DNA of 64,000 bases, from positions 8,103 through 72,102 of the forward strand of contig CAVKRN010000005.1 of NCBI GenBank assembly GCA_963658695.1, read 5' to 3'. This DNA comes from a bacterium (GTDB taxonomy: Bacteria > Bacillota > Clostridia > Lachnospirales > Lachnospiraceae). Position numbers and translations under genes: made by a program. The notes beneath the pieces are model-generated. The model was given only the letters and a program-made list of their open reading frames with translations. It made no database searches and was not told where the DNA came from. Positions 7,092 to 16,292 of the stretch are shown here, piece by piece. The first letter of the stretch is position 1. Each line of letters starts with the position of its first letter.

Positions 7092-7439
7092 TTACTCCGC
7101 CTCTTTTTCTTCCTCTGCAGCGGCATCCGCTTCAGGCTCTGCTGCCTCTGCAGTCTCATTCTCTAACTGAGCAATCTGCTCCTTGAGCTTAACAAGATCC
7201 TCTGTACTCAGCCCGGAAACAAAATCCGTGAAGTTCTTCTGCTTTTTTTCCTCTTCGAACTTCTTTTTCTTCTCCTCAGCGTTGTGACGAAGCTCCTGAT
7301 TCAGCGCTTTCCCCTGCTCAACGGTCAGCTCTCCCTTTTTCACCAGGTCGCTCAGGATCTCTCCGGACTTCTCAACCGAAGTTGCCGCCGCGCCAATACC
7401 AATCAGAAAAAATTTCTTAATTCCATCACCAAGTTCCAT
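7092..7439 (-). CDS. Phasin-like small helical protein
   Basis: KKFFLIGIGAAA...LVKKGELTVEQGK; start chosen after GGAGGT RBS; sits upstream of the ubiB-like gene. Confidence 0.7.
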   Translation of the reverse strand: MELGDGIKKFFLIGIGAAATSVEKSGEILSDLVKKGELTVEQGKALNQELRHNAEEKKKKFEEEKKQKNFTDFVSGLSTEDLVKLKEQIAQLENETAEAAEPEADAAAEEEKEAE

Positions 7440-7565
7440 TTGTAACACCTCCATTTACATCCCTTGCGGGTGATTGATACAGACAATTATACCATCGTTC
7501 ACCACAAGCGGCACGATATTTTGTATCTGTTCAGCACCTGCCGTCATCCCATGTTACAGTACAGA

Positions 7566-8245: not shown

Positions 8246-9241
8246 TCACGGCAACTGTACCTCATGCTCGGTTGCCTCTCCCCGCACAAACGCATCTGCT
8301 GCCTCATAGCAGCTTCCCACCATATGTCCCACGGCCTGTTTCGTATAAAACGCGGTGTGCGGGCTCATAATCACATTTGGAAAGGACCGCAGCACTGCCA
8401 TATCCCGGTTGCTTATCACATCGCCGATACGATTGTAATAATACAGCCCATCTTCCTTCTCCAGAACGTCCAGCGCTGCTCCGCCCACGCGTCCGCTCTC
8501 AAGTGCCGCAATCAGATCATCGGTATCCACCAGCTTTCCCCTTGCCGTATTAACAATGAGAACACCGTTCTTCATCTGATCAAAGGCATCTTTATTCAAC
8601 AAGTGATAATTCTCTCCGGTTGCATTGGTATGCAACGTAATCACATCGCTTTCCCGGTACAGTGTTTCCAGGGAAACATACTCCGCCAGCTTTTTCACAT
8701 CCTCATTCTGATAAGGATCGTAGCAAACAATCCGGCATCCCATACCGGAGAGATGTTCAATCACGGTTCTGCCAATGCGTCCCGTTCCAATCACGCCCAC
8801 GGTCTGAAAGGAAATATCATCTCCGATTTTACCCTTCAGGGAATAATCCTGAATTCTGGCTCGGCTCAGAATCTCTTCGATTCTCCGCTGCAGCATCAGC
8901 ATAAGCATAATGGCATAATTGGCAACGCCAGACGGCGGATAGCTCACATTGGCGACACGCATTCCCATTTTCGCCGCACACGCAAGATCAACATGATCAT
9001 ATCCGATGGACCTGCAAAGAATGTACTTTACCCCGATTGATGCGAACCGCTCTACCATTGCAGAAGACATGTCGCACGGCGTCATACTCACCGCATCCGC
9101 CCCCTGTGCCAGCCGATAATTATCCGCATCCGGATAATCCGTGGTATATCCAAACTCGATCCCATACTCTTTTGCATATTGCTCTGCAAAGGACAGCTCA
9201 TCAAATTCCCGCAAGGTATAGAAAAAAATCTTCATGCGCAA
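8246..9241 (-). CDS. D-lactate dehydrogenase-like D-2-hydroxyacid dehydrogenase
   Basis: GVIGTGRIG, VNTARG, ALDVLE, SPHTAFYT. Confidence 0.9.
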   Translation of the reverse strand: MRMKIFFYTLREFDELSFAEQYAKEYGIEFGYTTDYPDADNYRLAQGADAVSMTPCDMSSAMVERFASIGVKYILCRSIGYDHVDLACAAKMGMRVANVSYPPSGVANYAIMLMLMLQRRIEEILSRARIQDYSLKGKIGDDISFQTVGVIGTGRIGRTVIEHLSGMGCRIVCYDPYQNEDVKKLAEYVSLETLYRESDVITLHTNATGENYHLLNKDAFDQMKNGVLIVNTARGKLVDTDDLIAALESGRVGGAALDVLEKEDGLYYYNRIGDVISNRDMAVLRSFPNVIMSPHTAFYTKQAVGHMVGSCYEAADAFVRGEATEHEVQLP

Positions 9242-9397
9242 CCAATTCCTCCTATTAGCTATTCAGGGCCTACTTGAAAGATCACTGCTGCGCAGCCTCC
9301 CTTTGCTCATGCGGCGTCCTCACAAGATAAAAATCCAAAAACAAGCCCCGGAATGGTTACAGTATAACACTTCGCAGGCAGGATGCAGAACACATGG

Positions 9398-9436
9398 AAA
9401 AGGGTATCCATCACATCCTTGCGTGATCGATACCCT
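9398..9436 (-). terminator. Intrinsic terminator closing the ~600-nt non-coding unit
   Basis: Minus strand AGGGTATCGATCACG-CAAGGA-TGTGATGGATACCCT followed by TTT. Confidence 0.75.
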
Positions 9437-9997
9437 CTCAATGAATGAAGCGATTAATCTGCATTCCACAGCCTCTCTTTCTTCTGCTATATTCAGTTGT
9501 CCTTTCCATCCTCTGTTACTTCAAATCAGGTTCCCATCGGACTATACCTGCTAAGCGGTGGTCAGAAGCCTCTCCTCACCGGATTCCCGGCGTTTCCTGC
9601 CGGATACCTCTCCCGGATCATCGGACACCTTCGGCTTTTCTTCTCACTCTTACATGACTGCTTCCTAACATTTCTATGACCTGTTCATCGGACCATCCTC
9701 CGAACCTATCATCCACCTGTTCCGGAGCTTCCATTACTTAGTACATTGGAGTTTCCTCTTTGAATGAACTTCTATTTGACCTCGAAACCAATTTGGGAGC
9801 GGTTCCTGCTCAAACTCTGAATGATTCTGGAAATTTTGTCTGCGATTATCGTTCTGTGTACCGTACCTATGCCGTTGGACCGTCCTCCTTTCGCTTATTT
9901 TTGTTTACCGATCCCTCTAGGAATTCGGATTCAGGGAAAACATCTGTTGCCTTCGATCCTTTATTTTCTTTCTTTTCTTTCTTGTTTCCCTTTGTTG
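9398..9997 (-). ncRNA. Candidate large (~600 nt) non-coding RNA
   Basis: Near-consensus promoter upstream, terminator downstream, no minus-strand ORF >=60 aa in the track, repeated AGGA-loop hairpins. Confidence 0.6.
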
Positions 9998-10002
9998 ATT
10001 GT

Positions 10003-10031
10003 ATAGTACTACACCTCGTTCATTGTGTCAA
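10003..10031 (-). promoter_or_regulatory. Sigma-A promoter TTGACA-N17-TACTAT
   Basis: -35 at 10031-10026, -10 at 10008-10003, 17-bp spacer. Confidence 0.8.
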
Positions 10032-10189
10032 TCATTTTTGAGCGCTTTTTATAATTGTCTGCGTATTCGCAATTTGCCGCAGAATTCTTACAATTATTCA
10101 CATTCACTCAGTGTCTGTCATATTTTAACGCGAGCCTACTGCTTGCAGACAAATTCACGATTGAAATTGGCAAGTGGGCGAGGTGCGAA

Positions 10190-10218
10190 GCGACAGTGTA
10201 ACAGAGACATTGTATAAT
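10190..10218 (+). promoter_or_regulatory. Probable promoter GCGACA-N17-TATAAT for the amino-acid symporter
   Basis: Consensus -10 at 10213-10218, 4/6 -35 at correct spacing. Confidence 0.5.
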
Positions 10219-10305
10219 ACAAGGATCGCTGCTGTTCGCACGTCAGACAAACGACAGAGCAACGTTTATACAGTAATGACGTATCTGATGCATCGGAGGG
10301 GACAT

Positions 10306-11703
10306 ATGCAAATTGTACAGCTGATTGAAACCGTCTATCGCTTTTTATGGGGAGATCTGTTTGAAATCCCGCTGCCCGGAGGCGGCTCCGTCGGCATTTC
10401 ACTGCTGATTCTGTTTCTGGTCCCCGCCGCCGTTTATTTTACCATCCGCACTCGGTTCCTTCCGATCCGGCTTTTCCCGGATATGATCCGCGCCTTGATG
10501 CAGCAGGAGGAAAATGACCATGGCCTGTCGGCGTTTCAGACGCTGATCGTGTCCACCGCAACACGCGTCGGAATGGGAAATCTCGTCGGCGTCGTAGCGG
10601 CCATATCCGCCGGCGGCGCAGGTGCCGTGTTCTGGATGTGGATCACGGCTGTTCTAGGTTCCTCCACTGCATTCATTGAGGCAGTCCTTGCACAGCTTTA
10701 CAAAGAAAAGGACCCGCTCTATGGCGGGTATCGCGGAGGTCCGGCCTATTACATCCACCGTTTCTGGGAGCAAAAGGAAGGCAAGAAAAAGCGGTATGTC
10801 ATTCCGGCCGTTCTTTTTGCACTATCCGGTCTGATCTGCTGGTGCGGCATCAGCCAGGTCATCAGCAATTCCGTTTCCGAGTCCTTTGCAAATGCGTTTT
10901 CCATACCGCCGCTGTATACAACAATTGTTCTGGTTCTTCTTGCCGCCGTCATTGTTCTGCGCAAGGATGCCACGGTGAAGGTTCTGGACATCATGGTGCC
11001 CTTTATGGCCATCATGTACTTTGCCATCACGTTATTTATCATCTTTAAAAATATCTCCGCCCTTCCATCGGTTCTGCAGAGAATCTTCGAGGAAGCCCTT
11101 GGACTGCGTCCGTTTGCAGGCGGCACGTTTGGTGCTGTGCTTATGAACGGCATCAAGCGCGGTTTGTTTTCCAACGAGGCAGGCTCCGGCTCGGCCCCCT
11201 GTGCTGCCGCCGCAGCCGATGGCAAATCCCCGGCTGCCATGGGTCTTGTACAGTCGCTGGGTGTTTTTATTGATACCATTGTCATCTGCAGCTGCACCGC
11301 CTTTATCATGCTTCTTGCACCGCAGGAAATCACCGAAGGCCTGTCGGGAATGGCCCTTCTGCAGTCAGCCATGGCCTACCACCTGGGATCCTTCGGTGTC
11401 ATCTTCATCGCCATTACTCTGGGTTTATTCAGCTTTTCTACGTTCCTGGGCATTTTGTTCTATGCCCGTTCCAACGTAGCCTACCTGTTCGGTGACCGCT
11501 TTGTGTGGCAGACGCTCTACAAGCTGCTTGCACTGGTTATGCTGTTCATCGGCGGCATTGCTTCCTACACCTTCGTGTGGGATCTGGGCGATGTCGGCAT
11601 CGGACTGATGACGCTGTTCAACATATCGATTCTGTATCCCATGTCGAAGGAAGCACTCTCTGTGCTGGCCGACTACGAAGCAAGCAAAAAGCACGGACGT
11701 TGA
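10306..11703 (+). CDS. Alanine/glycine:cation symporter (AGCS family)
   Basis: RVGMGNLVGV, GGAGAVFWMW, RGLFSNEAGSGSAP, FIDTIVICSCT; start after GGAGGGG. Confidence 0.93.
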   Translation: MQIVQLIETVYRFLWGDLFEIPLPGGGSVGISLLILFLVPAAVYFTIRTRFLPIRLFPDMIRALMQQEENDHGLSAFQTLIVSTATRVGMGNLVGVVAAISAGGAGAVFWMWITAVLGSSTAFIEAVLAQLYKEKDPLYGGYRGGPAYYIHRFWEQKEGKKKRYVIPAVLFALSGLICWCGISQVISNSVSESFANAFSIPPLYTTIVLVLLAAVIVLRKDATVKVLDIMVPFMAIMYFAITLFIIFKNISALPSVLQRIFEEALGLRPFAGGTFGAVLMNGIKRGLFSNEAGSGSAPCAAAAADGKSPAAMGLVQSLGVFIDTIVICSCTAFIMLLAPQEITEGLSGMALLQSAMAYHLGSFGVIFIAITLGLFSFSTFLGILFYARSNVAYLFGDRFVWQTLYKLLALVMLFIGGIASYTFVWDLGDVGIGLMTLFNISILYPMSKEALSVLADYEASKKHGR

Positions 11704-13003: not shown

Positions 13004-14209
13004 TTACAAATTCCGGATTGATGTTACCACCCAGTATCCGTCTGCCGTCTTGGAGATGACAACCTCCGGCGCTTCTCCTAAGAGGCTGATGCTAAAGGAA
13101 TCTCCCGTCACTTCGGCATCGTACAGGCTGCAGTATTGCACGTTGCGTGCAAGATCATCGGAAACAACGTCCGCAAACCGCAGACCGGTAAACTCCTCTG
13201 CCGAAGCAATTTGCCTGCCGTCCAGTGTTAGCGGAAAGCTGCAGACACCGGCAAGCATATCCAGGCTCTCCATGTGGAGCGCCAGCTGTACCTGCGATGC
13301 CGTATACATGGCCTCGTAGTCCTTTTCCGGGGTCTGTGCGTCAGTATTTTCCAATGATTCAAAGGTGATGTTCGATGCATCCCCATCGGCCCCTAAAAGT
13401 CCCTTATACTTCATGCTGTAACAGTGTCCAACCTGTATACCGCCCGCAAGATTTCCGGTGCTGATGTCCTCTCCGCTGATGGTGACAAACTCACCGGCGT
13501 ACGTCACCATTGTAAAGGAATGCATGGAGGCATCTGCAATCACACCGTATGTCTCCCGTTCCACAGAGGCCATCGACTCCGCATACGTCATGTCCACCCG
13601 CTGAGCCCCCTCCGGAAGGACAATGGAATTCTCCAGCTTATCTACGCTGTTGTAAAGCGTTTCGTATGCCGACTGTGTTCCCTCGCCGCACTGCACATCC
13701 GTAGGAAAGGAAACTGCAACATAACCATCCACGTCGCTGCTTCCATCGGCCTTCACACCGCAAATAAAATCTCCGCCGACGAATTCAATAAATTCCGGCG
13801 GCGCTGTCTGGTACACAACCCCGCACACAAATCCGCCTTCGCCATTGTCCTTGGCTGCTGTGCAATAAAAGTTCAGCGTATAAGATTCCGCATTGTCATC
13901 GGACGACTGATACACATCCCAGCTGTAATCGCCATTCCAGTCCGAAGGAATCGTCACTGCGAAATACGGTGTCGTCAGTACATTGCCGCTCACCGTCACC
14001 GAATCAGATGTTCCTTCCTTGCTCTCATCGGCAATGACATCCTGCGTATTCTCTGTTCCGGCAATTTCCGCAGAATCTGTCGTAGCTGCTTCAGCTGTGA
14101 CCTCCGTAGACGCAGCAGGCGATGCCTGTGTGCCATCCGTGTCTGCACACGCCGCCATCGACACTCCCATTCCCACTGCCAGCAGCACTACTGCCACTTT
14201 ATTCTTCAT
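13004..14209 (-). CDS. Acidic lipoprotein of unknown function
   Basis: MKNK + hydrophobic stretch + lipobox-like MAAC; AAAGGAGG RBS; Thr/Ala-rich linker. Confidence 0.75.
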   Translation of the reverse strand: MKNKVAVVLLAVGMGVSMAACADTDGTQASPAASTEVTAEAATTDSAEIAGTENTQDVIADESKEGTSDSVTVSGNVLTTPYFAVTIPSDWNGDYSWDVYQSSDDNAESYTLNFYCTAAKDNGEGGFVCGVVYQTAPPEFIEFVGGDFICGVKADGSSDVDGYVAVSFPTDVQCGEGTQSAYETLYNSVDKLENSIVLPEGAQRVDMTYAESMASVERETYGVIADASMHSFTMVTYAGEFVTISGEDISTGNLAGGIQVGHCYSMKYKGLLGADGDASNITFESLENTDAQTPEKDYEAMYTASQVQLALHMESLDMLAGVCSFPLTLDGRQIASAEEFTGLRFADVVSDDLARNVQYCSLYDAEVTGDSFSISLLGEAPEVVISKTADGYWVVTSIRNL

Positions 14210-14361
14210 CTTGGTTGTTCCTCCTTTATCACTCTTCTGCAAGACCATCATAACAGGCTCGCAGCTACTCAGAATCGCATTCGCAAAACTTGCTATGCAG
14301 GCGTTACTGTACAGACGCCTGCCTGCGACGGGTGAACCGTTATATGCAGGCTTCTTTTGGC

Positions 14362-15363
14362 TCATGTGGCGCTCTCGCCGTATTGTGCCTCAATCTCCCG
14401 CACCCTGCGAAGAAGATACTCATTAACCGGCATTTCCAGTCCCAGTTCTCTTCCCTGTCGAATCACCGTCCCCGCAAACATGTCGACCTCCGAACGTCTT
14501 TTTTGCCGACGGTCCTGCCCCATAGACGGAACCGCATTGGGATCCAGCGTTTTTTCCAATGCAATATACTCCGCAAGCTCCTTCTCACCCACCATGATGC
14601 CTTTGGCCTGTGCCAGTGCACACACCTCACGCATCGCTCCAGTCATCAGTGCAAATTCAAGGCTCCCCAGCTCCAGGCACGGTCCATAGCCCTTATCCGC
14701 CACCATGCAGACCTGGTTGCAACCCACATTCAGCATGAACTTGCTCCAGATTCTATGAAGAATGTTCTCTTCTCTAACGTAAGAAACTCCGCTTTGGTCA
14801 AAAAAGCGGCAGACCGCATCCAGTTTTGCCAGAAGTATTCCACGCAGCTCCTCTGCCTGTTCCAGGGTAAGAGGATTTTGAGCATCCAGAGTCATCAGCT
14901 GCTCCCCAGACGGTACACCGATATACAGATGCCCGTGCTGCGTATAGGTCAGGTTGGTACCATACCTTTGTGCATCCATCCCCTGCGAGACATTAAACAG
15001 AACCTTTTCTCGTCCAAACCGCTTTCCTAAAAGCTCTTCGCTGTCCACGCCGTTCATCATTGAGAGAATGGTGGTCTCTTCTCCCACTGATGAGGCCATT
15101 GTCTCCATCGCCGAAGCAAACTGAGGATATTTTACACCGACGAGGATCAAATCAGCCGGTCCCTCCTCACGGGCCTGCTCGGGTGTTAGCATCGTAAACT
15201 GTACTTCTTCTCCATTGATTGTGTAAATATCCTTCCGATGCCGTTCCAGTCGTTCCGCATCCATTACGAATTCAATTTTTCCGCCTTCCGGCAGGTTCTG
15301 ACGCATTTGATCCGCAAACAAAAGTCCCAGTGCTCCTGCACCGATAAAACGAATCCTCTTCAC
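14362..15363 (-). CDS. Ketopantoate reductase family protein (ApbA/PanE)
   Basis: IGAGALG, MNGV, IWSKFMLN, PSMGQD...RRSEVD; GTG start inferred. Confidence 0.88.
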   Translation of the reverse strand: MKRIRFIGAGALGLLFADQMRQNLPEGGKIEFVMDAERLERHRKDIYTINGEEVQFTMLTPEQAREEGPADLILVGVKYPQFASAMETMASSVGEETTILSMMNGVDSEELLGKRFGREKVLFNVSQGMDAQRYGTNLTYTQHGHLYIGVPSGEQLMTLDAQNPLTLEQAEELRGILLAKLDAVCRFFDQSGVSYVREENILHRIWSKFMLNVGCNQVCMVADKGYGPCLELGSLEFALMTGAMREVCALAQAKGIMVGEKELAEYIALEKTLDPNAVPSMGQDRRQKRRSEVDMFAGTVIRQGRELGLEMPVNEYLLRRVREIEAQYGESAT

Positions 15364-15577: not shown

Positions 15578-15964
15578 TTATAAAATAGGTTCATTGGCCA
15601 GCCGTTTTCTTCTCCGAACCACAGAAACATCAAACCCTAAAATCGACTTGCACTGCTCCATAAGACGCAGCCCCGATTCTATGCCCGCATCTGCCGCCAG
15701 CTCTGCGTTCTGTACTGCATGCGTCTGAACCTTTACCTTGCGTGTCACATTTATTCCACCGACAACATCATCCAATTCTGCATCGGACACTTCCTGAACA
15801 AGATCATCCAAATCCGTCTCCGTCAGATCAATGCCCTGCTCCTTCCAGAAATCCAAAATAACAGCTGTCGTAGGCTCTCCGTTCTTCTCAATTTCAGCGA
15901 TTTTCTGCTGAACATCCGGCTGTGCTGCAATCTGCTGCATCTTTACCATCTTTTCTTTTTCCAT
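15578..15964 (-). CDS. Nif11-like leader / double-glycine precursor protein
   Basis: KEQGIDLTETDL...EVSDAELDDVVGG matches the Nif11 leader pattern ELSDxELxxVxGG; AGGAG RBS. Confidence 0.7.
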   Translation of the reverse strand: MEKEKMVKMQQIAAQPDVQQKIAEIEKNGEPTTAVILDFWKEQGIDLTETDLDDLVQEVSDAELDDVVGGINVTRKVKVQTHAVQNAELAADAGIESGLRLMEQCKSILGFDVSVVRRRKRLANEPIL

Positions 15965-16218: not shown

Positions 16219-16292
16219 GGCGAGGTAGCTCAGCTGGCTAGAGCACGCGGTTCATACCCGCGGTGTCGAGGGTTCAAGTCCCCCCCTCGCTA
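16219..16292 (+). tRNA. tRNA-Met (CAT), elongator type; CCA not encoded
   Basis: Cloverleaf GGCGAGG acceptor, D arm GCTC/GAGC, anticodon arm CGCGG-TTCATAC-CCGCG, GGTTCAA T loop; no initiator C1 mismatch or 3 G-C anticodon stem. Confidence 0.95.

What the first reader, a model, noticed from the sequence alone, without database searches (positions are those of the whole stretch)
9398..10031. ORF-free ~600-nt transcription unit with AGGA-loop hairpins: candidate CsrB/RsmZ-like sponge RNA in a Firmicute
Seen on the minus strand: TTGACA-N17-TACTAT (10031-10003), then ~600 purine-rich nt with no ORF >=60 aa, then an intrinsic terminator (9436-9398). The downstream dehydrogenase has its own extended -10 (TGTTATACT, ~9369-9361), so this looks like a stand-alone RNA rather than a leader. 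Short hairpins repeatedly show GGA in their loops: GAGC-AGGAACC-GCTC (9811-9797), CCGGC-AGGAAAC-GCCGG (9603-9587), TCGGA-GGATGG-TCCGA (9703-9688), GGA-GGACGG-TCC (9888-9877) and ATCACG-CAAGGA-TGTGAT in the terminator (9427-9410). My hand count is about 24 GGA and 12 AGGA; purine richness explains part of that. Established: CsrA/RsmA binds loop A(N)GGA with consensus near ACARGGAUGU, and CsrB/RsmZ titrate it in Gammaproteobacteria, whereas Bacillus CsrA is antagonised by the protein FliW. Inference: an undescribed protein-sponging or otherwise new large ncRNA.
Basis: partly seen in the sequence, partly recalled or inferred. Interest (0 to 1): 0.8.

Follow-up and report, generated by a model that had tools for sequence, protein, structure and literature searches.

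The report
Conserved small RNA carrying tiny genes
This is a real, conserved, stand-alone transcript of gut and rumen Lachnospiraceae that is not a CsrA sponge but a purine-rich RNA studded with ribosome start sites and ending in a conserved eight-codon gene, a kind of tiny-gene RNA not yet described.

Summary
Promoter, 5' end and terminator are conserved in relatives and sit in different genomic contexts.

The CsrB/RsmZ reading fails:
- No csrA or fliW in a 99.69% complete genome.
- GGA and AGGA counts do not exceed dinucleotide shuffles.
- GGA in predicted loops is not enriched.
- Loop GGAs are lost in the nearest relatives.
- No Rfam family matches.

Comparison of about 45 family members shows a different anatomy:
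- A conserved palindromic box upstream of a near-consensus promoter.
- A conserved A-rich 5' end.
- Two to five modules that look like translation start sites (strong Shine-Dalgarno, spacer ending CC-R, AUG, 1-5 codons, stop).
- A conserved ACAACUGAAUA box.
- A terminal ORF, MQINRFIH in the window, whose stop codon abuts the terminator stem.

The terminal ORF varies almost only synonymously, using five Arg codons including CGG to AGG. Start and stop codons also interchange. Distant members carry other 5-14-codon ORFs at the same place.

Best reading: a regulated, translated micro-ORF RNA acting through ribosome engagement and its oligopeptide. Its function is unknown, and no expression data could be obtained.

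The parts
10051..10088 (-). Conserved upstream box (GAATTCTG, about 9 nt, then AATTGCGAATA-CGCAGACAATT). Its core, 10075-10054, is an imperfect palindrome centred about 67 nt upstream of the predicted start. Candidate transcription-factor site.
   Evidence: It sits at a fixed distance from the -35 in most family members, whatever the neighbouring genes. A profile built from it finds only this one site in the genome, at E 9e-10, with the next hit at E 7.2.
10003..10031 (-). Promoter: TTGACA (10031-10026), 17-nt spacer, TACTAT (10008-10003).
   Evidence: 10 of 12 consensus positions. Conserved in the relatives.
9981..9999 (-). Predicted 5' end with the conserved box AUCAACAAAGGGAAAC, followed by an A/G-rich leader. 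The start is predicted at about 9996-9999 and has not been mapped.
   Evidence: Near-invariant in the alignments. Related forms occur in distant members.
9867..9894 (-). Module A: extended Shine-Dalgarno-like AAAGGAGG, spacer ending CC-A, then ACG in the place of a start codon. It is AUG or UUG in other lineages.
9738..9762 (-). Module B: AAGAGGA, spacer ending CCA, then AUG UAC UAA (9746-9738). A two-codon mini-ORF.
   Evidence: In the relatives the start is AUG in every listed module B, the second codon is UAC, CAC, AAC, UAU or AAA, and the stop is UAA, UAG or UGA.
9674..9704 (-). Module B': GGAGGA, spacer UGGUCCG, then AUG AAC AGG UCA UAG (9688-9674).
9562..9624 (-). A fourth CCGAUG (9624-9619) opening a 19-codon ORF. 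A 1-nt indel shifts its frame in the relatives, so it is not conserved as a peptide. The region holds the lineage-specific CCGG hairpins.
9526..9556 (-). Module C: CGCUUAGCAGGUAUAGUCCG, then AUG GGA ACC UGA (9537-9526).
   Evidence: Conserved across most members.
9484..9500 (-). Conserved box ACAACUGAAUAUAGCAG.
   Evidence: Nearly invariant core ACAACUGAAUA. There is no other copy or complement in the genome.
9438..9478 (-). Terminal micro-ORF with its Shine-Dalgarno: AGAGAGG (9478-9472), a 7-nt spacer, then AUG CAG AUU AAU CGC UUC AUU CAU UGA (9464-9438) = MQINRFIH.
   Evidence: Among 30 sequences (23 unique) found by BLAST or by covariance model, variation is synonymous apart from Ile to Arg at codon 3 and the variable codon 8. 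An in-frame extension with a perfect Shine-Dalgarno exists in one lineage.
9398..9436 (-). Intrinsic terminator. Its stem starts 2 nt after the stop codon.
   Evidence: Covariation. The stop-to-stem gap is -8 to +1 nt in the 36 members that could be scored.
9361..9369 (-). Extended -10 (TGTTATACT) of the downstream D-2-hydroxyacid dehydrogenase gene (8246-9241). Not part of the RNA; it marks the next unit.
   Evidence: Pfam. TGnTATACT is kept in 4 of 5 clade genomes.

Best explanation
The region is a stand-alone, probably transcription-factor-controlled gene for a roughly 600-nt purine-rich, weakly structured RNA. The RNA is built to be engaged by ribosomes rather than by a sponge-binding protein.

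It carries several translation-initiation-like modules. Each has a strong Shine-Dalgarno sequence, a spacer ending CC-R, an AUG, 1-5 codons and a stop. It ends in a translated 8-codon ORF (MQINRFIH) whose stop codon sits at the foot of the terminator hairpin.

Shown in silico:
- the independent unit;
- the repeated modules;
- coding-type conservation of the terminal ORF;
- the constant position of the stop codon against the terminator.

Inferred:
- Ribosomes or 30S subunits load at the modules. This keeps the RNA unfolded and may protect it, as strong Shine-Dalgarno sites do in Bacillus mRNAs.
- The terminal ORF is translated.
- The effect is exerted through the oligopeptide, either free or as a nascent chain in a ribosome that must open the terminator stem. 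In that sense it would work like a small-ORF-bearing (dual-function) sRNA.

The cellular target and the inducing signal are unknown.
For: Independent unit:
- The family occurs in 17 of 86 genomes of the genus by blastn and in 28 of 86 by covariance model.
- There are up to 3 copies per genome, in different neighbourhoods.
- The promoter and an upstream box are conserved.

Translation of the terminal ORF. Among 30 sequences (23 unique) not found through the codon-shaped patterns:
- Third positions vary in 5 of 6 codons for codons 2-7.
- The first position varies only as CGG to AGG, which is synonymous.
- The second position varies only in ATT to AGA.
- Arg is written CGC, CGG, CGA, CGT and AGG.
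- All 12 upstream positions vary.
- Start codons are AUG or GUG, and stops are UAA, UAG or UGA.
- The Shine-Dalgarno lies 7-9 nt upstream in most lineages.
- One lineage adds an in-frame MKI with a perfect AAGGAGG plus 7-nt spacer. Another has a 14-codon form ending QINRFIR.
- Only 20% of single-base changes of these codons would be synonymous.

Modules:
- CC[AG]ATG occurs 4 times, against 0.30 in shuffles (0 of 1000 reach 4).
- Shine-Dalgarno plus ATG occurs 5 times, against 1.9 (49 of 1000).
- The consensus is AAAGGAGGACAGUCCAAUGG, and the ORFs are mostly 2-5 codons.

Architecture in distant members: other tiny terminal ORFs (MTLIRYVS, MQWIRAVL, MKLQFISK, MKLLIIH and others) end at the terminator in the same way.

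Precedents:
- Dual-function sRNAs, including the 110-nt rnTrpL with its 14-aa peTrpL (PMC12310071, passages).
- Ribosomes at a strong Shine-Dalgarno block RNase J1 on hbs mRNA (PMC5737220, abstract in the listing).
Against: - There is no expression or ribosome-occupancy evidence. No RNA run was listed, so the transcript, its ends and its translation are all inferred.
- The terminal peptide is not conserved across the whole family, whereas RNA-level boxes are (5' end, module spacer, ACAACUGAAUA). That points to an RNA-level function as well or instead.
- Module A has AAG or ACG instead of a start codon in many members. Among 136 unique module windows the count is 76 ATG, 39 AAG, 11 ACG, 6 TTG, 3 TCG and 1 TAG.
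- In some lineages the Shine-Dalgarno lies 11-15 nt from the start codon.
- One copy (G074c) has lost the stop before the terminator.
- Short ORFs are expected anyway in A/G-rich sequence.
- An 8-aa product is smaller than the products I saw listed for characterised dual-function sRNAs (14-26 aa in the passages).
Confidence: 0.55

Rival explanations
1. A non-coding decoy (sponge) made of start-site mimics. The repeated Shine-Dalgarno/CC-R-AUG modules would titrate 30S subunits (the anti-Shine-Dalgarno end of 16S rRNA), a protein that binds initiation regions, or a pyrimidine-rich small RNA. The mini-ORFs would be by-products.
For: - The modules are conserved in their spacer as well (GGUCC-R-AUG), beyond what a start site needs.
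- Module A often lacks a start codon but keeps an 8-9-nt Shine-Dalgarno.
- The RNA is 64% purine and weakly folded.
- Module number varies from 2 to 5 with RNA length.
Against: - The synonymous-only variation of the terminal ORF is not explained.
- No complement to any module or box within 2 mismatches exists elsewhere in the genome.
- No Hfq or CsrA was found.
- No binding protein is known.
Confidence: 0.2
2. A leaderless signalling-peptide gene, like the 8-10-aa LCP/SIP quorum-sensing peptides. The octapeptide would be exported, re-imported and sensed by a regulator that binds the conserved upstream palindrome.
For: - The ORF has 8 codons and no leader.
- Paralogues in one genome carry different peptides.
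- A conserved operator-like box lies upstream of the promoter.
- LCPs are 8-10 aa and their promoters carry the receptor's site (PMC10518010, passages).
Against: - LCPs are highly hydrophobic and lie next to a divergent ropB/Rgg receptor. MQINRFIH has Q, N, R and H.
- The neighbours here are a Na:alanine symporter and a dehydrogenase.
- No Rgg C-terminal domain (TIGR01716) was found in the genome.
- The same upstream box serves paralogues with different peptides.
Confidence: 0.1
3. A cis-acting leader with ribosome-dependent attenuation. A ribosome held at the end of the 8-codon ORF would mask the 5' arm of the terminator and let RNA polymerase read into the dehydrogenase gene, as with MsrDL or Erm leaders.
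For: - The stop codon is 2 nt from the terminator stem here, and within -8 to +1 nt in the 36 members scored.
- In the window's clade the dehydrogenase follows on the same strand.
- MsrDL (6 aa) stalls at its stop codon and lets polymerase bypass an intrinsic terminator (PMC10314930, passages).
Against: - In about 11 of 20 context classes the next gene is convergent, and the same-strand genes are unrelated to one another.
- The dehydrogenase keeps its own extended -10 promoter in 4 of 5 clade genomes.
- No antiterminator was found.
Confidence: 0.07
4. A CsrB/RsmZ-like sponge that titrates CsrA through GGA in hairpin loops.
For: - There are 24 GGA and 12 AGGA, and some lie in small predicted loops.
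Against: - No csrA or fliW in a 99.69% complete genome.
- The counts and loop placement are within what shuffles give.
- Loop GGAs are lost in the nearest relatives.
- No Rfam CsrB or Rsm match, even at E up to 10.
Confidence: 0.01

Closest known systems
CsrB/RsmZ family of CsrA-titrating RNAs
   Same: A long stand-alone RNA with its own promoter and terminator and many purine-rich short motifs.
   Different: There is no CsrA in the genome. GGA is not enriched, not loop-biased and not conserved. The repeated unit is a Shine-Dalgarno/start-codon module, not a GGA loop.
Dual-function (small-ORF-bearing) sRNAs, e.g. RNAIII with delta-hemolysin, SR1 with SR1P, rnTrpL with peTrpL
   Same: An independent, terminator-ended transcript that carries a small translated ORF. 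rnTrpL is a terminated RNA of about 110 nt with a 14-aa peptide just upstream of the terminator (PMC12310071).
   Different: The ORF is only 8 codons. There are several further 2-5-codon ORFs with strong Shine-Dalgarno sequences. No base-pairing target was found. It is not derived from a biosynthetic leader.
Arrest-type leader peptides of resistance genes (MsrDL, ErmCL, ErmAL1)
   Same: A 6-9-codon ORF with a strong Shine-Dalgarno placed so that a ribosome at its end interferes with a terminator or hairpin (PMC10314930). A loose likeness of R-F/Y/A-I/V to the IFVI and IAVV motifs is my own recollection and was not tested.
   Different: No conserved downstream gene is controlled. No drug dependence is known. 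The peptide differs between subfamilies.
Leaderless communication peptides (SIP/LCP with RopB)
   Same: An 8-10-codon ORF with no leader, in an intergenic region, with a regulator site in its promoter (PMC10518010).
   Different: The peptide is not hydrophobic. There is no adjacent RopB/Rgg receptor, and none was detected in the genome.
Two- to three-codon minigenes (lambda bar, the axe-txe minigene)
   Same: A strong Shine-Dalgarno, an AUG, one or two codons and a stop. Other lineages have AUG-AAG-AGG-UAA, with the rarest Arg codon. AGA and AGG near the start codon act as toxic minigenes do (PMC2490762, abstract in the listing).
   Different: Here they are conserved chromosomal elements in tandem on one RNA. 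Toxicity or tRNA sequestration was not tested. The lambda bar details are recalled.
Bacillus subtilis yrzI (spyTA) polycistronic small-peptide mRNA
   Same: One transcript in a Firmicute that encodes several very small peptides and whose fate depends on translation (PMC12067863, abstract in the listing).
   Different: There is no sequence relation, and the ORFs here are far smaller.

Membership tests
CsrB/RsmZ-type CsrA sponge | A cognate CsrA protein is encoded in the genome. | tested here: not met
   PF02599 gives 0 matches in G000 (99.69% complete), while the control rings in 3 of 14 genomes. FliW is also absent.
CsrB/RsmZ-type CsrA sponge | GGA motifs exceed what composition gives and sit preferentially in hairpin loops. 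| tested here: not met
   GGA 24 against 21.6 +/- 3.0. AGGA 12 against 8.3 +/- 2.6. Loop GGA 3 against 2.1.
CsrB/RsmZ-type CsrA sponge | Loop GGAs are conserved in homologues. | tested here: not met
   Two of the five hairpins lose the GGA in 4 of 4 clade relatives. The terminator-loop GGA is lost outside the clade.
CsrB/RsmZ-type CsrA sponge | A match to an Rfam CsrB/RsmX/Y/Z model. | tested here: not met
   No match at gathering scores or at E up to 10.
Known large bacterial RNAs in Rfam (ROOL, GOLLD, OLE, HEARO, raiA and others) | A covariance-model match. | tested here: not met
   cmscan of 9100-10400 at E up to 10 gave four sub-threshold chance hits only.
Dual-function (ORF-bearing) sRNA | An independent transcription unit with its own promoter and terminator. 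| tested here: met
   The promoter and a covarying terminator are conserved, and the neighbourhoods differ. This is in silico only; no RNA data were available.
Dual-function (ORF-bearing) sRNA | The small ORF is translated. | tested here: inconclusive
   The substitution pattern, the Shine-Dalgarno spacing and the exchange of start and stop codons fit coding. No ribosome data exist.
Dual-function (ORF-bearing) sRNA | A base-pairing regulatory activity. | tested here: inconclusive
   No complement within 2 mismatches to the boxes or modules exists in the genome. Short seed pairings are not excluded.
Leaderless communication peptide (LCP/RopB) | A leaderless ORF of 8-10 codons. | tested here: met
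   8 codons, 9464-9438.
Leaderless communication peptide (LCP/RopB) | A highly hydrophobic (aliphatic/aromatic) peptide. | tested here: not met
   MQINRFIH contains Q, N, R and H. The criterion comes from PMC10518010.
Leaderless communication peptide (LCP/RopB) | An adjacent, divergently transcribed RopB/Rgg receptor. | tested here: not met
   The neighbours are a Na:alanine symporter and a 2-hydroxyacid dehydrogenase. TIGR01716 gives 0 matches in the genome.
Ribosome-dependent attenuator leader (MsrDL/Erm type) | A short ORF placed so that a ribosome at its end overlaps an intrinsic terminator. | tested here: met
   The stop-to-stem gap is -8 to +1 nt in the 36 of 46 entries that could be scored.
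Ribosome-dependent attenuator leader (MsrDL/Erm type) | A conserved regulated gene downstream on the same strand. | tested here: not met
   About 11 of 20 context classes have a convergent next gene, and the same-strand genes are unrelated. The dehydrogenase has its own promoter.
Ribosome-dependent attenuator leader (MsrDL/Erm type) | Ligand- or drug-dependent ribosome stalling. | not testable with these tools
   This needs toeprinting or reporter assays.
bar-type minigene | A strong Shine-Dalgarno, an AUG, 1-3 codons and a stop. | tested here: met
   AUG UAC UAA at 9746-9738 with AAGAGGA 8 nt upstream. It is conserved as start-X-stop in the relatives.
bar-type minigene | Peptidyl-tRNA drop-off or tRNA sequestration on expression. 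| not testable with these tools
   This needs expression in a peptidyl-tRNA-hydrolase-limited background.

The most novel reading that the evidence does not exclude
These RNAs would be a new class of regulated 'micro-ORF RNAs' that work through the ribosome itself.

A chain of start-stop minigenes loads and releases ribosomes along an unstructured purine-rich scaffold. A short arrest-type nascent peptide (MQINRFIH and its variants) holds a ribosome on the foot of the terminator hairpin.

The RNA's fate or activity would then report on translation status, for example a tunnel-binding antibiotic or metabolite, or tRNA supply. Alternatively the RNA would sequester ribosomes or tRNA in trans. One transcription factor bound at the conserved upstream palindrome would control the whole set.
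Probability: 0.2. Interest if true: 0.85.

Novelty: new variant of a known kind. Interest (0 to 1): 0.62.

Why it matters
If the reading holds, abundant gut and rumen Lachnospiraceae carry a gene family that standard annotation cannot see. It has no Rfam model, and its ORFs are far below any gene-caller's cut-off.

The conserved product would be only eight residues long, among the smallest bacterial peptides kept by selection.

The design is unusual. Several strong ribosome start sites are followed by near-immediate stops, a terminal tiny ORF is pressed against the terminator, and a shared upstream operator is present. This gives a concrete, testable system for asking what very short ORFs and 'start-stop' elements do in Firmicutes.

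It also shows that a purine-rich, GGA-laden RNA need not be a CsrA sponge.

Tried and rejected
- **Rfam.** The whole window at gathering scores gave only a tRNA at 16219-16292. The region at E up to 10 gave four sub-threshold hits.
- **Expression.** No RNA holder was listed for 8900-10700.
- **CsrA, FliW, Hfq and Rgg C-terminal domain** in the own genome: none found.
- **A hairpin inside the modules (GGX...YCC).** The X:Y letters are not consistently complementary, so this was rejected.
- **Pairing of the ORF region with the upstream box.** This was judged by eye and is out of register between subfamilies, so it was rejected.
- **First collection pattern.** It was too degenerate.
- **Pattern bias.** The patterns force synonymous-type degeneracy, so their hits were left out of the codon test.
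- **Antisense ORFs.** ORFs of 60-106 aa lie on the plus strand. Four plus-strand ORFs, two of them inside the unit and two overlapping its ends, were scanned: no Pfam family. Indels between close relatives are not multiples of three.
- **Plasmid and phage collections:** no match.
- **Complements of the modules and boxes elsewhere in the genome:** none within 2 mismatches.
- **Upstream-box pattern in 401 genomes of the family.** It matched in 74 genomes. Of the 30 loci inspected, only 3 had a promoter-like site after the match: G000 itself, L251 and L228. Most matches lie in coding-like sequence, and the backwards control pattern also hits.
- **Literature.** The string QINRFI occurs in no paper of the library. 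A search for Lachnospiraceae small RNAs gave nothing relevant.
Full report
**What is at the coordinates**

The region lies in a roughly 1060-nt divergent gap. On one side is a D-isomer 2-hydroxyacid dehydrogenase gene (8246-9241, minus strand). On the other is a sodium:alanine symporter gene (from 10303, plus strand) (Pfam).

- TTGACA at 10031-10026, a 17-nt spacer, and TACTAT at 10008-10003.
- The five small hairpins.
- The hairpin plus T-run at 9436-9398.
- TGTTATACT at 9369-9361.

The largest minus-strand ORFs are 49, 44, 38 and 32 aa. The predicted RNA is 64% purine. GGA occurs 24 times and AGGA 12 times, exactly as hand-counted.

- The genome is 99.69% complete. It yields no CsrA (PF02599) and no FliW (PF02623), while the same searches ring in control genomes.
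- GGA (24 against 21.6 +/- 3.0; 268 of 1000 shuffles reach 24) and AGGA (12 against 8.3 +/- 2.6; 128 of 1000) are what the dinucleotide content gives.
- GGA lying wholly in predicted hairpin loops is not enriched (3 against 2.1; 35 of 100 shuffles).
- The whole RNA does not fold better than shuffles (z = -1.31).
- In the four closest relatives (81-85% identical) the GAGC/GCTC hairpin and its AGGA are gone. The CCGGC/GCCGG stem survives but its loop reads AGAAAC, AGAAGC or AUAAGAC.
- The GGA in the terminator loop is lost outside that clade.
- No Rfam family matches at gathering scores or at E up to 10.

**It is nevertheless a real, stand-alone gene**
- blastn finds it in 17 of 86 genomes of the genus.
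- A covariance model of the 3' part finds it in 28 of 86. Of these, 21 have strong matches, and there are up to three copies per genome.
- Four of the seven weak matches that I inspected show the same build.
- In a draw of 150 other genera of the family, 2 had weak matches with the same build.
- A pattern scan turned up one more likely distant member (L251).
- Public records holding members are mostly titled Lachnospiraceae.
- A metagenome scan gave 22 loci, all with the ORF and terminator. Eighteen are of one short type of about 215 nt.

The neighbours differ between lineages:
- The dehydrogenase follows only in the window's clade.
- Elsewhere the unit faces the end of a phosphoglucomutase-like gene, a D-aminoacyl-tRNA-deacylase-like gene, or other genes.
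- In about 11 of 20 context classes the next gene is convergent. This was judged by eye from stop-to-stop ORFs, not by a gene caller.

Further support:
- The dehydrogenase keeps its own extended -10 in 4 of 5 clade genomes.
- The terminator helix covaries strongly: 93% of cells paired, 9 of 14 pairs with changes on both sides, 0 of 500 shuffles as high.
- The simple scan did not list it, because its tail has only four T.
- There is no match in the plasmid or phage collections.

**Anatomy from the comparison**

Length varies from about 142 to about 650 nt. The conserved parts, from 5' to 3', are:

1. **An upstream box at a fixed distance from the -35.** In the window it lies at 10088-10051, with an imperfect palindrome at 10075-10054. 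It is present whatever the neighbouring genes and occurs only once in this genome. This suggests one regulator for the whole family.
2. **The near-consensus promoter.**
3. **An A-rich 5' end**, AUCAACAAAGG(G/A)AA.
4. **Two to five modules** with consensus AAAGGAGGACAGUCCAAUGG. Each has a strong Shine-Dalgarno sequence, a spacer ending CC-R, a start codon, 1-5 codons and a stop.
   - In the window CC[AG]ATG occurs 4 times against 0.30 expected (0 of 1000 shuffles).
   - A Shine-Dalgarno followed by ATG occurs 5 times against 1.9 (49 of 1000).
   - The window's modules are at 9894-9867 (ACG in the start position), 9762-9738 (AUG UAC UAA), 9704-9674 (MNRS) and 9556-9526 (MGT).
   - Among 136 unique module windows the start triplet is ATG 76, AAG 39, ACG 11, TTG 6, TCG 3 and TAG 1.
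5. **The box ACAACUGAAUA** (9500-9484 in the window).
6. **A Shine-Dalgarno and a terminal tiny ORF.**
7. **The terminator**, whose stem begins within -8 to +1 nt of the stop codon. This holds in the 36 of 46 entries that could be scored. Seven entries lacked a run of four T by my script's rule. Three gave no ORF within 8 nt, and one of those (G074c) has truly lost its stop.

**The terminal ORF looks translated**

In the window it reads AUG CAG AUU AAU CGC UUC AUU CAU UGA (9464-9438), giving MQINRFIH. AGAGAGG lies 7 nt upstream.

To avoid the bias of my own degenerate search patterns, I used only the 30 sequences (23 unique) found by BLAST or by the covariance model. In codons 2-7:
- Third positions vary in 5 of 6 codons.
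- The first position varies once (CGG to AGG, synonymous).
- The second position varies once (AUU to AGA, Ile to Arg).
- Arg is written with five codons.
- All 12 positions upstream of the start vary.

Only about 20% of single-base changes of these codons would be synonymous.

Other signs of coding:
- Start codons are AUG or GUG, and stop codons are UAA, UAG or UGA.
- One lineage has an in-frame upstream AUG (MKI-MQINRFIS) with AAGGAGG and a 7-nt spacer.
- Another lineage has a 14-codon form ending QINRFIR.

Distant members carry unrelated or loosely similar ORFs of 5-10 codons in the same position: MTLIRYVS, MQWIRAVL, MKLQFISK, MKLQVFSE, MRLLNFR, MKLLIIH and MESTDESNRT.

**What argues the other way**
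- There is no expression or ribosome evidence. No RNA holder was listed.
- The peptide is not conserved across the whole family, while several RNA boxes are.
- Module A often has no start codon.
- The Shine-Dalgarno lies 11-15 nt from the start in some lineages.
- Short ORFs are expected in A/G-rich sequence.

**How it most likely works**

I commit to a regulated, ribosome-engaged micro-ORF RNA.
- *Shown:* an independent unit, repeated start-site modules, coding-type conservation of the last ORF, and its stop pressed against the terminator.
- *Inferred:* ribosomes or 30S subunits occupy the modules. This keeps the purine-rich RNA open and perhaps protects it, as a strong Shine-Dalgarno does against RNase J1 on Bacillus hbs mRNA (PMC5737220, abstract seen in the listing).
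- *Inferred:* the last ORF is translated, and a ribosome reaching its stop must open the 5' arm of the terminator stem.
- *Inferred:* the oligopeptide, free or nascent, is the effector.

**Rivals**
- A non-coding start-site decoy. This is possible. However, no partner was found: there is no complement within 2 mismatches in the genome and no Hfq.
- A leaderless signalling peptide. LCPs are hydrophobic and sit beside a RopB/Rgg gene (PMC10518010, passages). Neither is true here.
- A cis attenuator of the MsrDL type (PMC10314930, passages). The variable and often convergent downstream genes speak against it.
- The CsrA sponge, which is refuted.

**Comparison and novelty**

The nearest known kind is the small-ORF-bearing, or dual-function, sRNA. 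The review passages I saw list peptides of 14-26 aa, including rnTrpL with peTrpL, a terminated RNA of about 110 nt with a 14-aa peptide (PMC12310071).

This family differs in three ways:
- its conserved ORF has only 8 codons;
- it has tandem 2-5-codon ORFs with very strong Shine-Dalgarno sequences;
- it has a shared upstream operator-like box.

Minigene effects of very short ORFs and of AGG near the start are documented (PMC2490762 and PMC8708949, abstracts in the listing). Details of lambda bar and of the Erm leader motifs are from my memory. AGG is the rarest Arg codon in this genome (8%) and recurs in module ORFs of other lineages, but not in the window's own module A.

The string QINRFI occurs in no paper of the library, and no Rfam family matches. 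I therefore rate it a new variant of a known kind. It is of real interest, but its function is unproven.

Noticed in passing
window 10054-10075 (box 10051-10088): An imperfect palindrome (AATTGCG, 8 nt, AGACAATT) lies about 67 nt upstream of the predicted start. It is conserved upstream of family members in unrelated neighbourhoods, which suggests a single unknown regulator. There is only one such site in this genome.
   Followed up: partly
L016 (G095, contig C50) 1218-2392: Two family copies lie in tandem about 200 nt apart. Several genomes hold three diverged copies with different terminal peptides (G058, G001, G074, G094, G095, G100).
   Followed up: partly
L212/L220 (G074, contig C126): One copy has CAG where its relatives have the stop TAG. 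Its terminal ORF therefore runs into the terminator and T-run and would give a non-stop RNA. It could be a decaying copy or a tolerated variant.
   Followed up: no
window 9241-9369: In the window about 110 nt separate the dehydrogenase's extended -10 (TGTTATACT) from its Shine-Dalgarno. In three clade relatives (G022, G097, G098) the -10 lies only about 10 nt before the Shine-Dalgarno. So G000 has an extra leader segment of unknown role. The likely start is the ATG at about 9235 rather than the TTG at 9241.
   Followed up: partly
window 15578-15964 (-): A 128-aa ORF has a weak, sub-threshold match to the type-A lantibiotic family (PF04604, E 9.8e-4, 19.4 bits against a cut-off of 21.7).
   Followed up: no
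window 13004-14365 (-) and 7092-7454 (-): ORFs of 453 aa and 120 aa have no Pfam family at E up to 0.001.
   Followed up: no
window 9575-9625 (-): A lineage-specific insert carries three ATCCGG/CCGG repeats that form nested small hairpins. It holds a 19-codon ORF that is frame-shifted in the closest relatives. It looks like variable filler between conserved modules.
   Followed up: partly
L251 (G459, another genus): A purine-rich unit follows a TTGACA promoter. It has a GGAGGUACGGUCC module and a 6-codon ORF (MIEISE) near its end, and is probably a distant member of the same family.
   Followed up: partly
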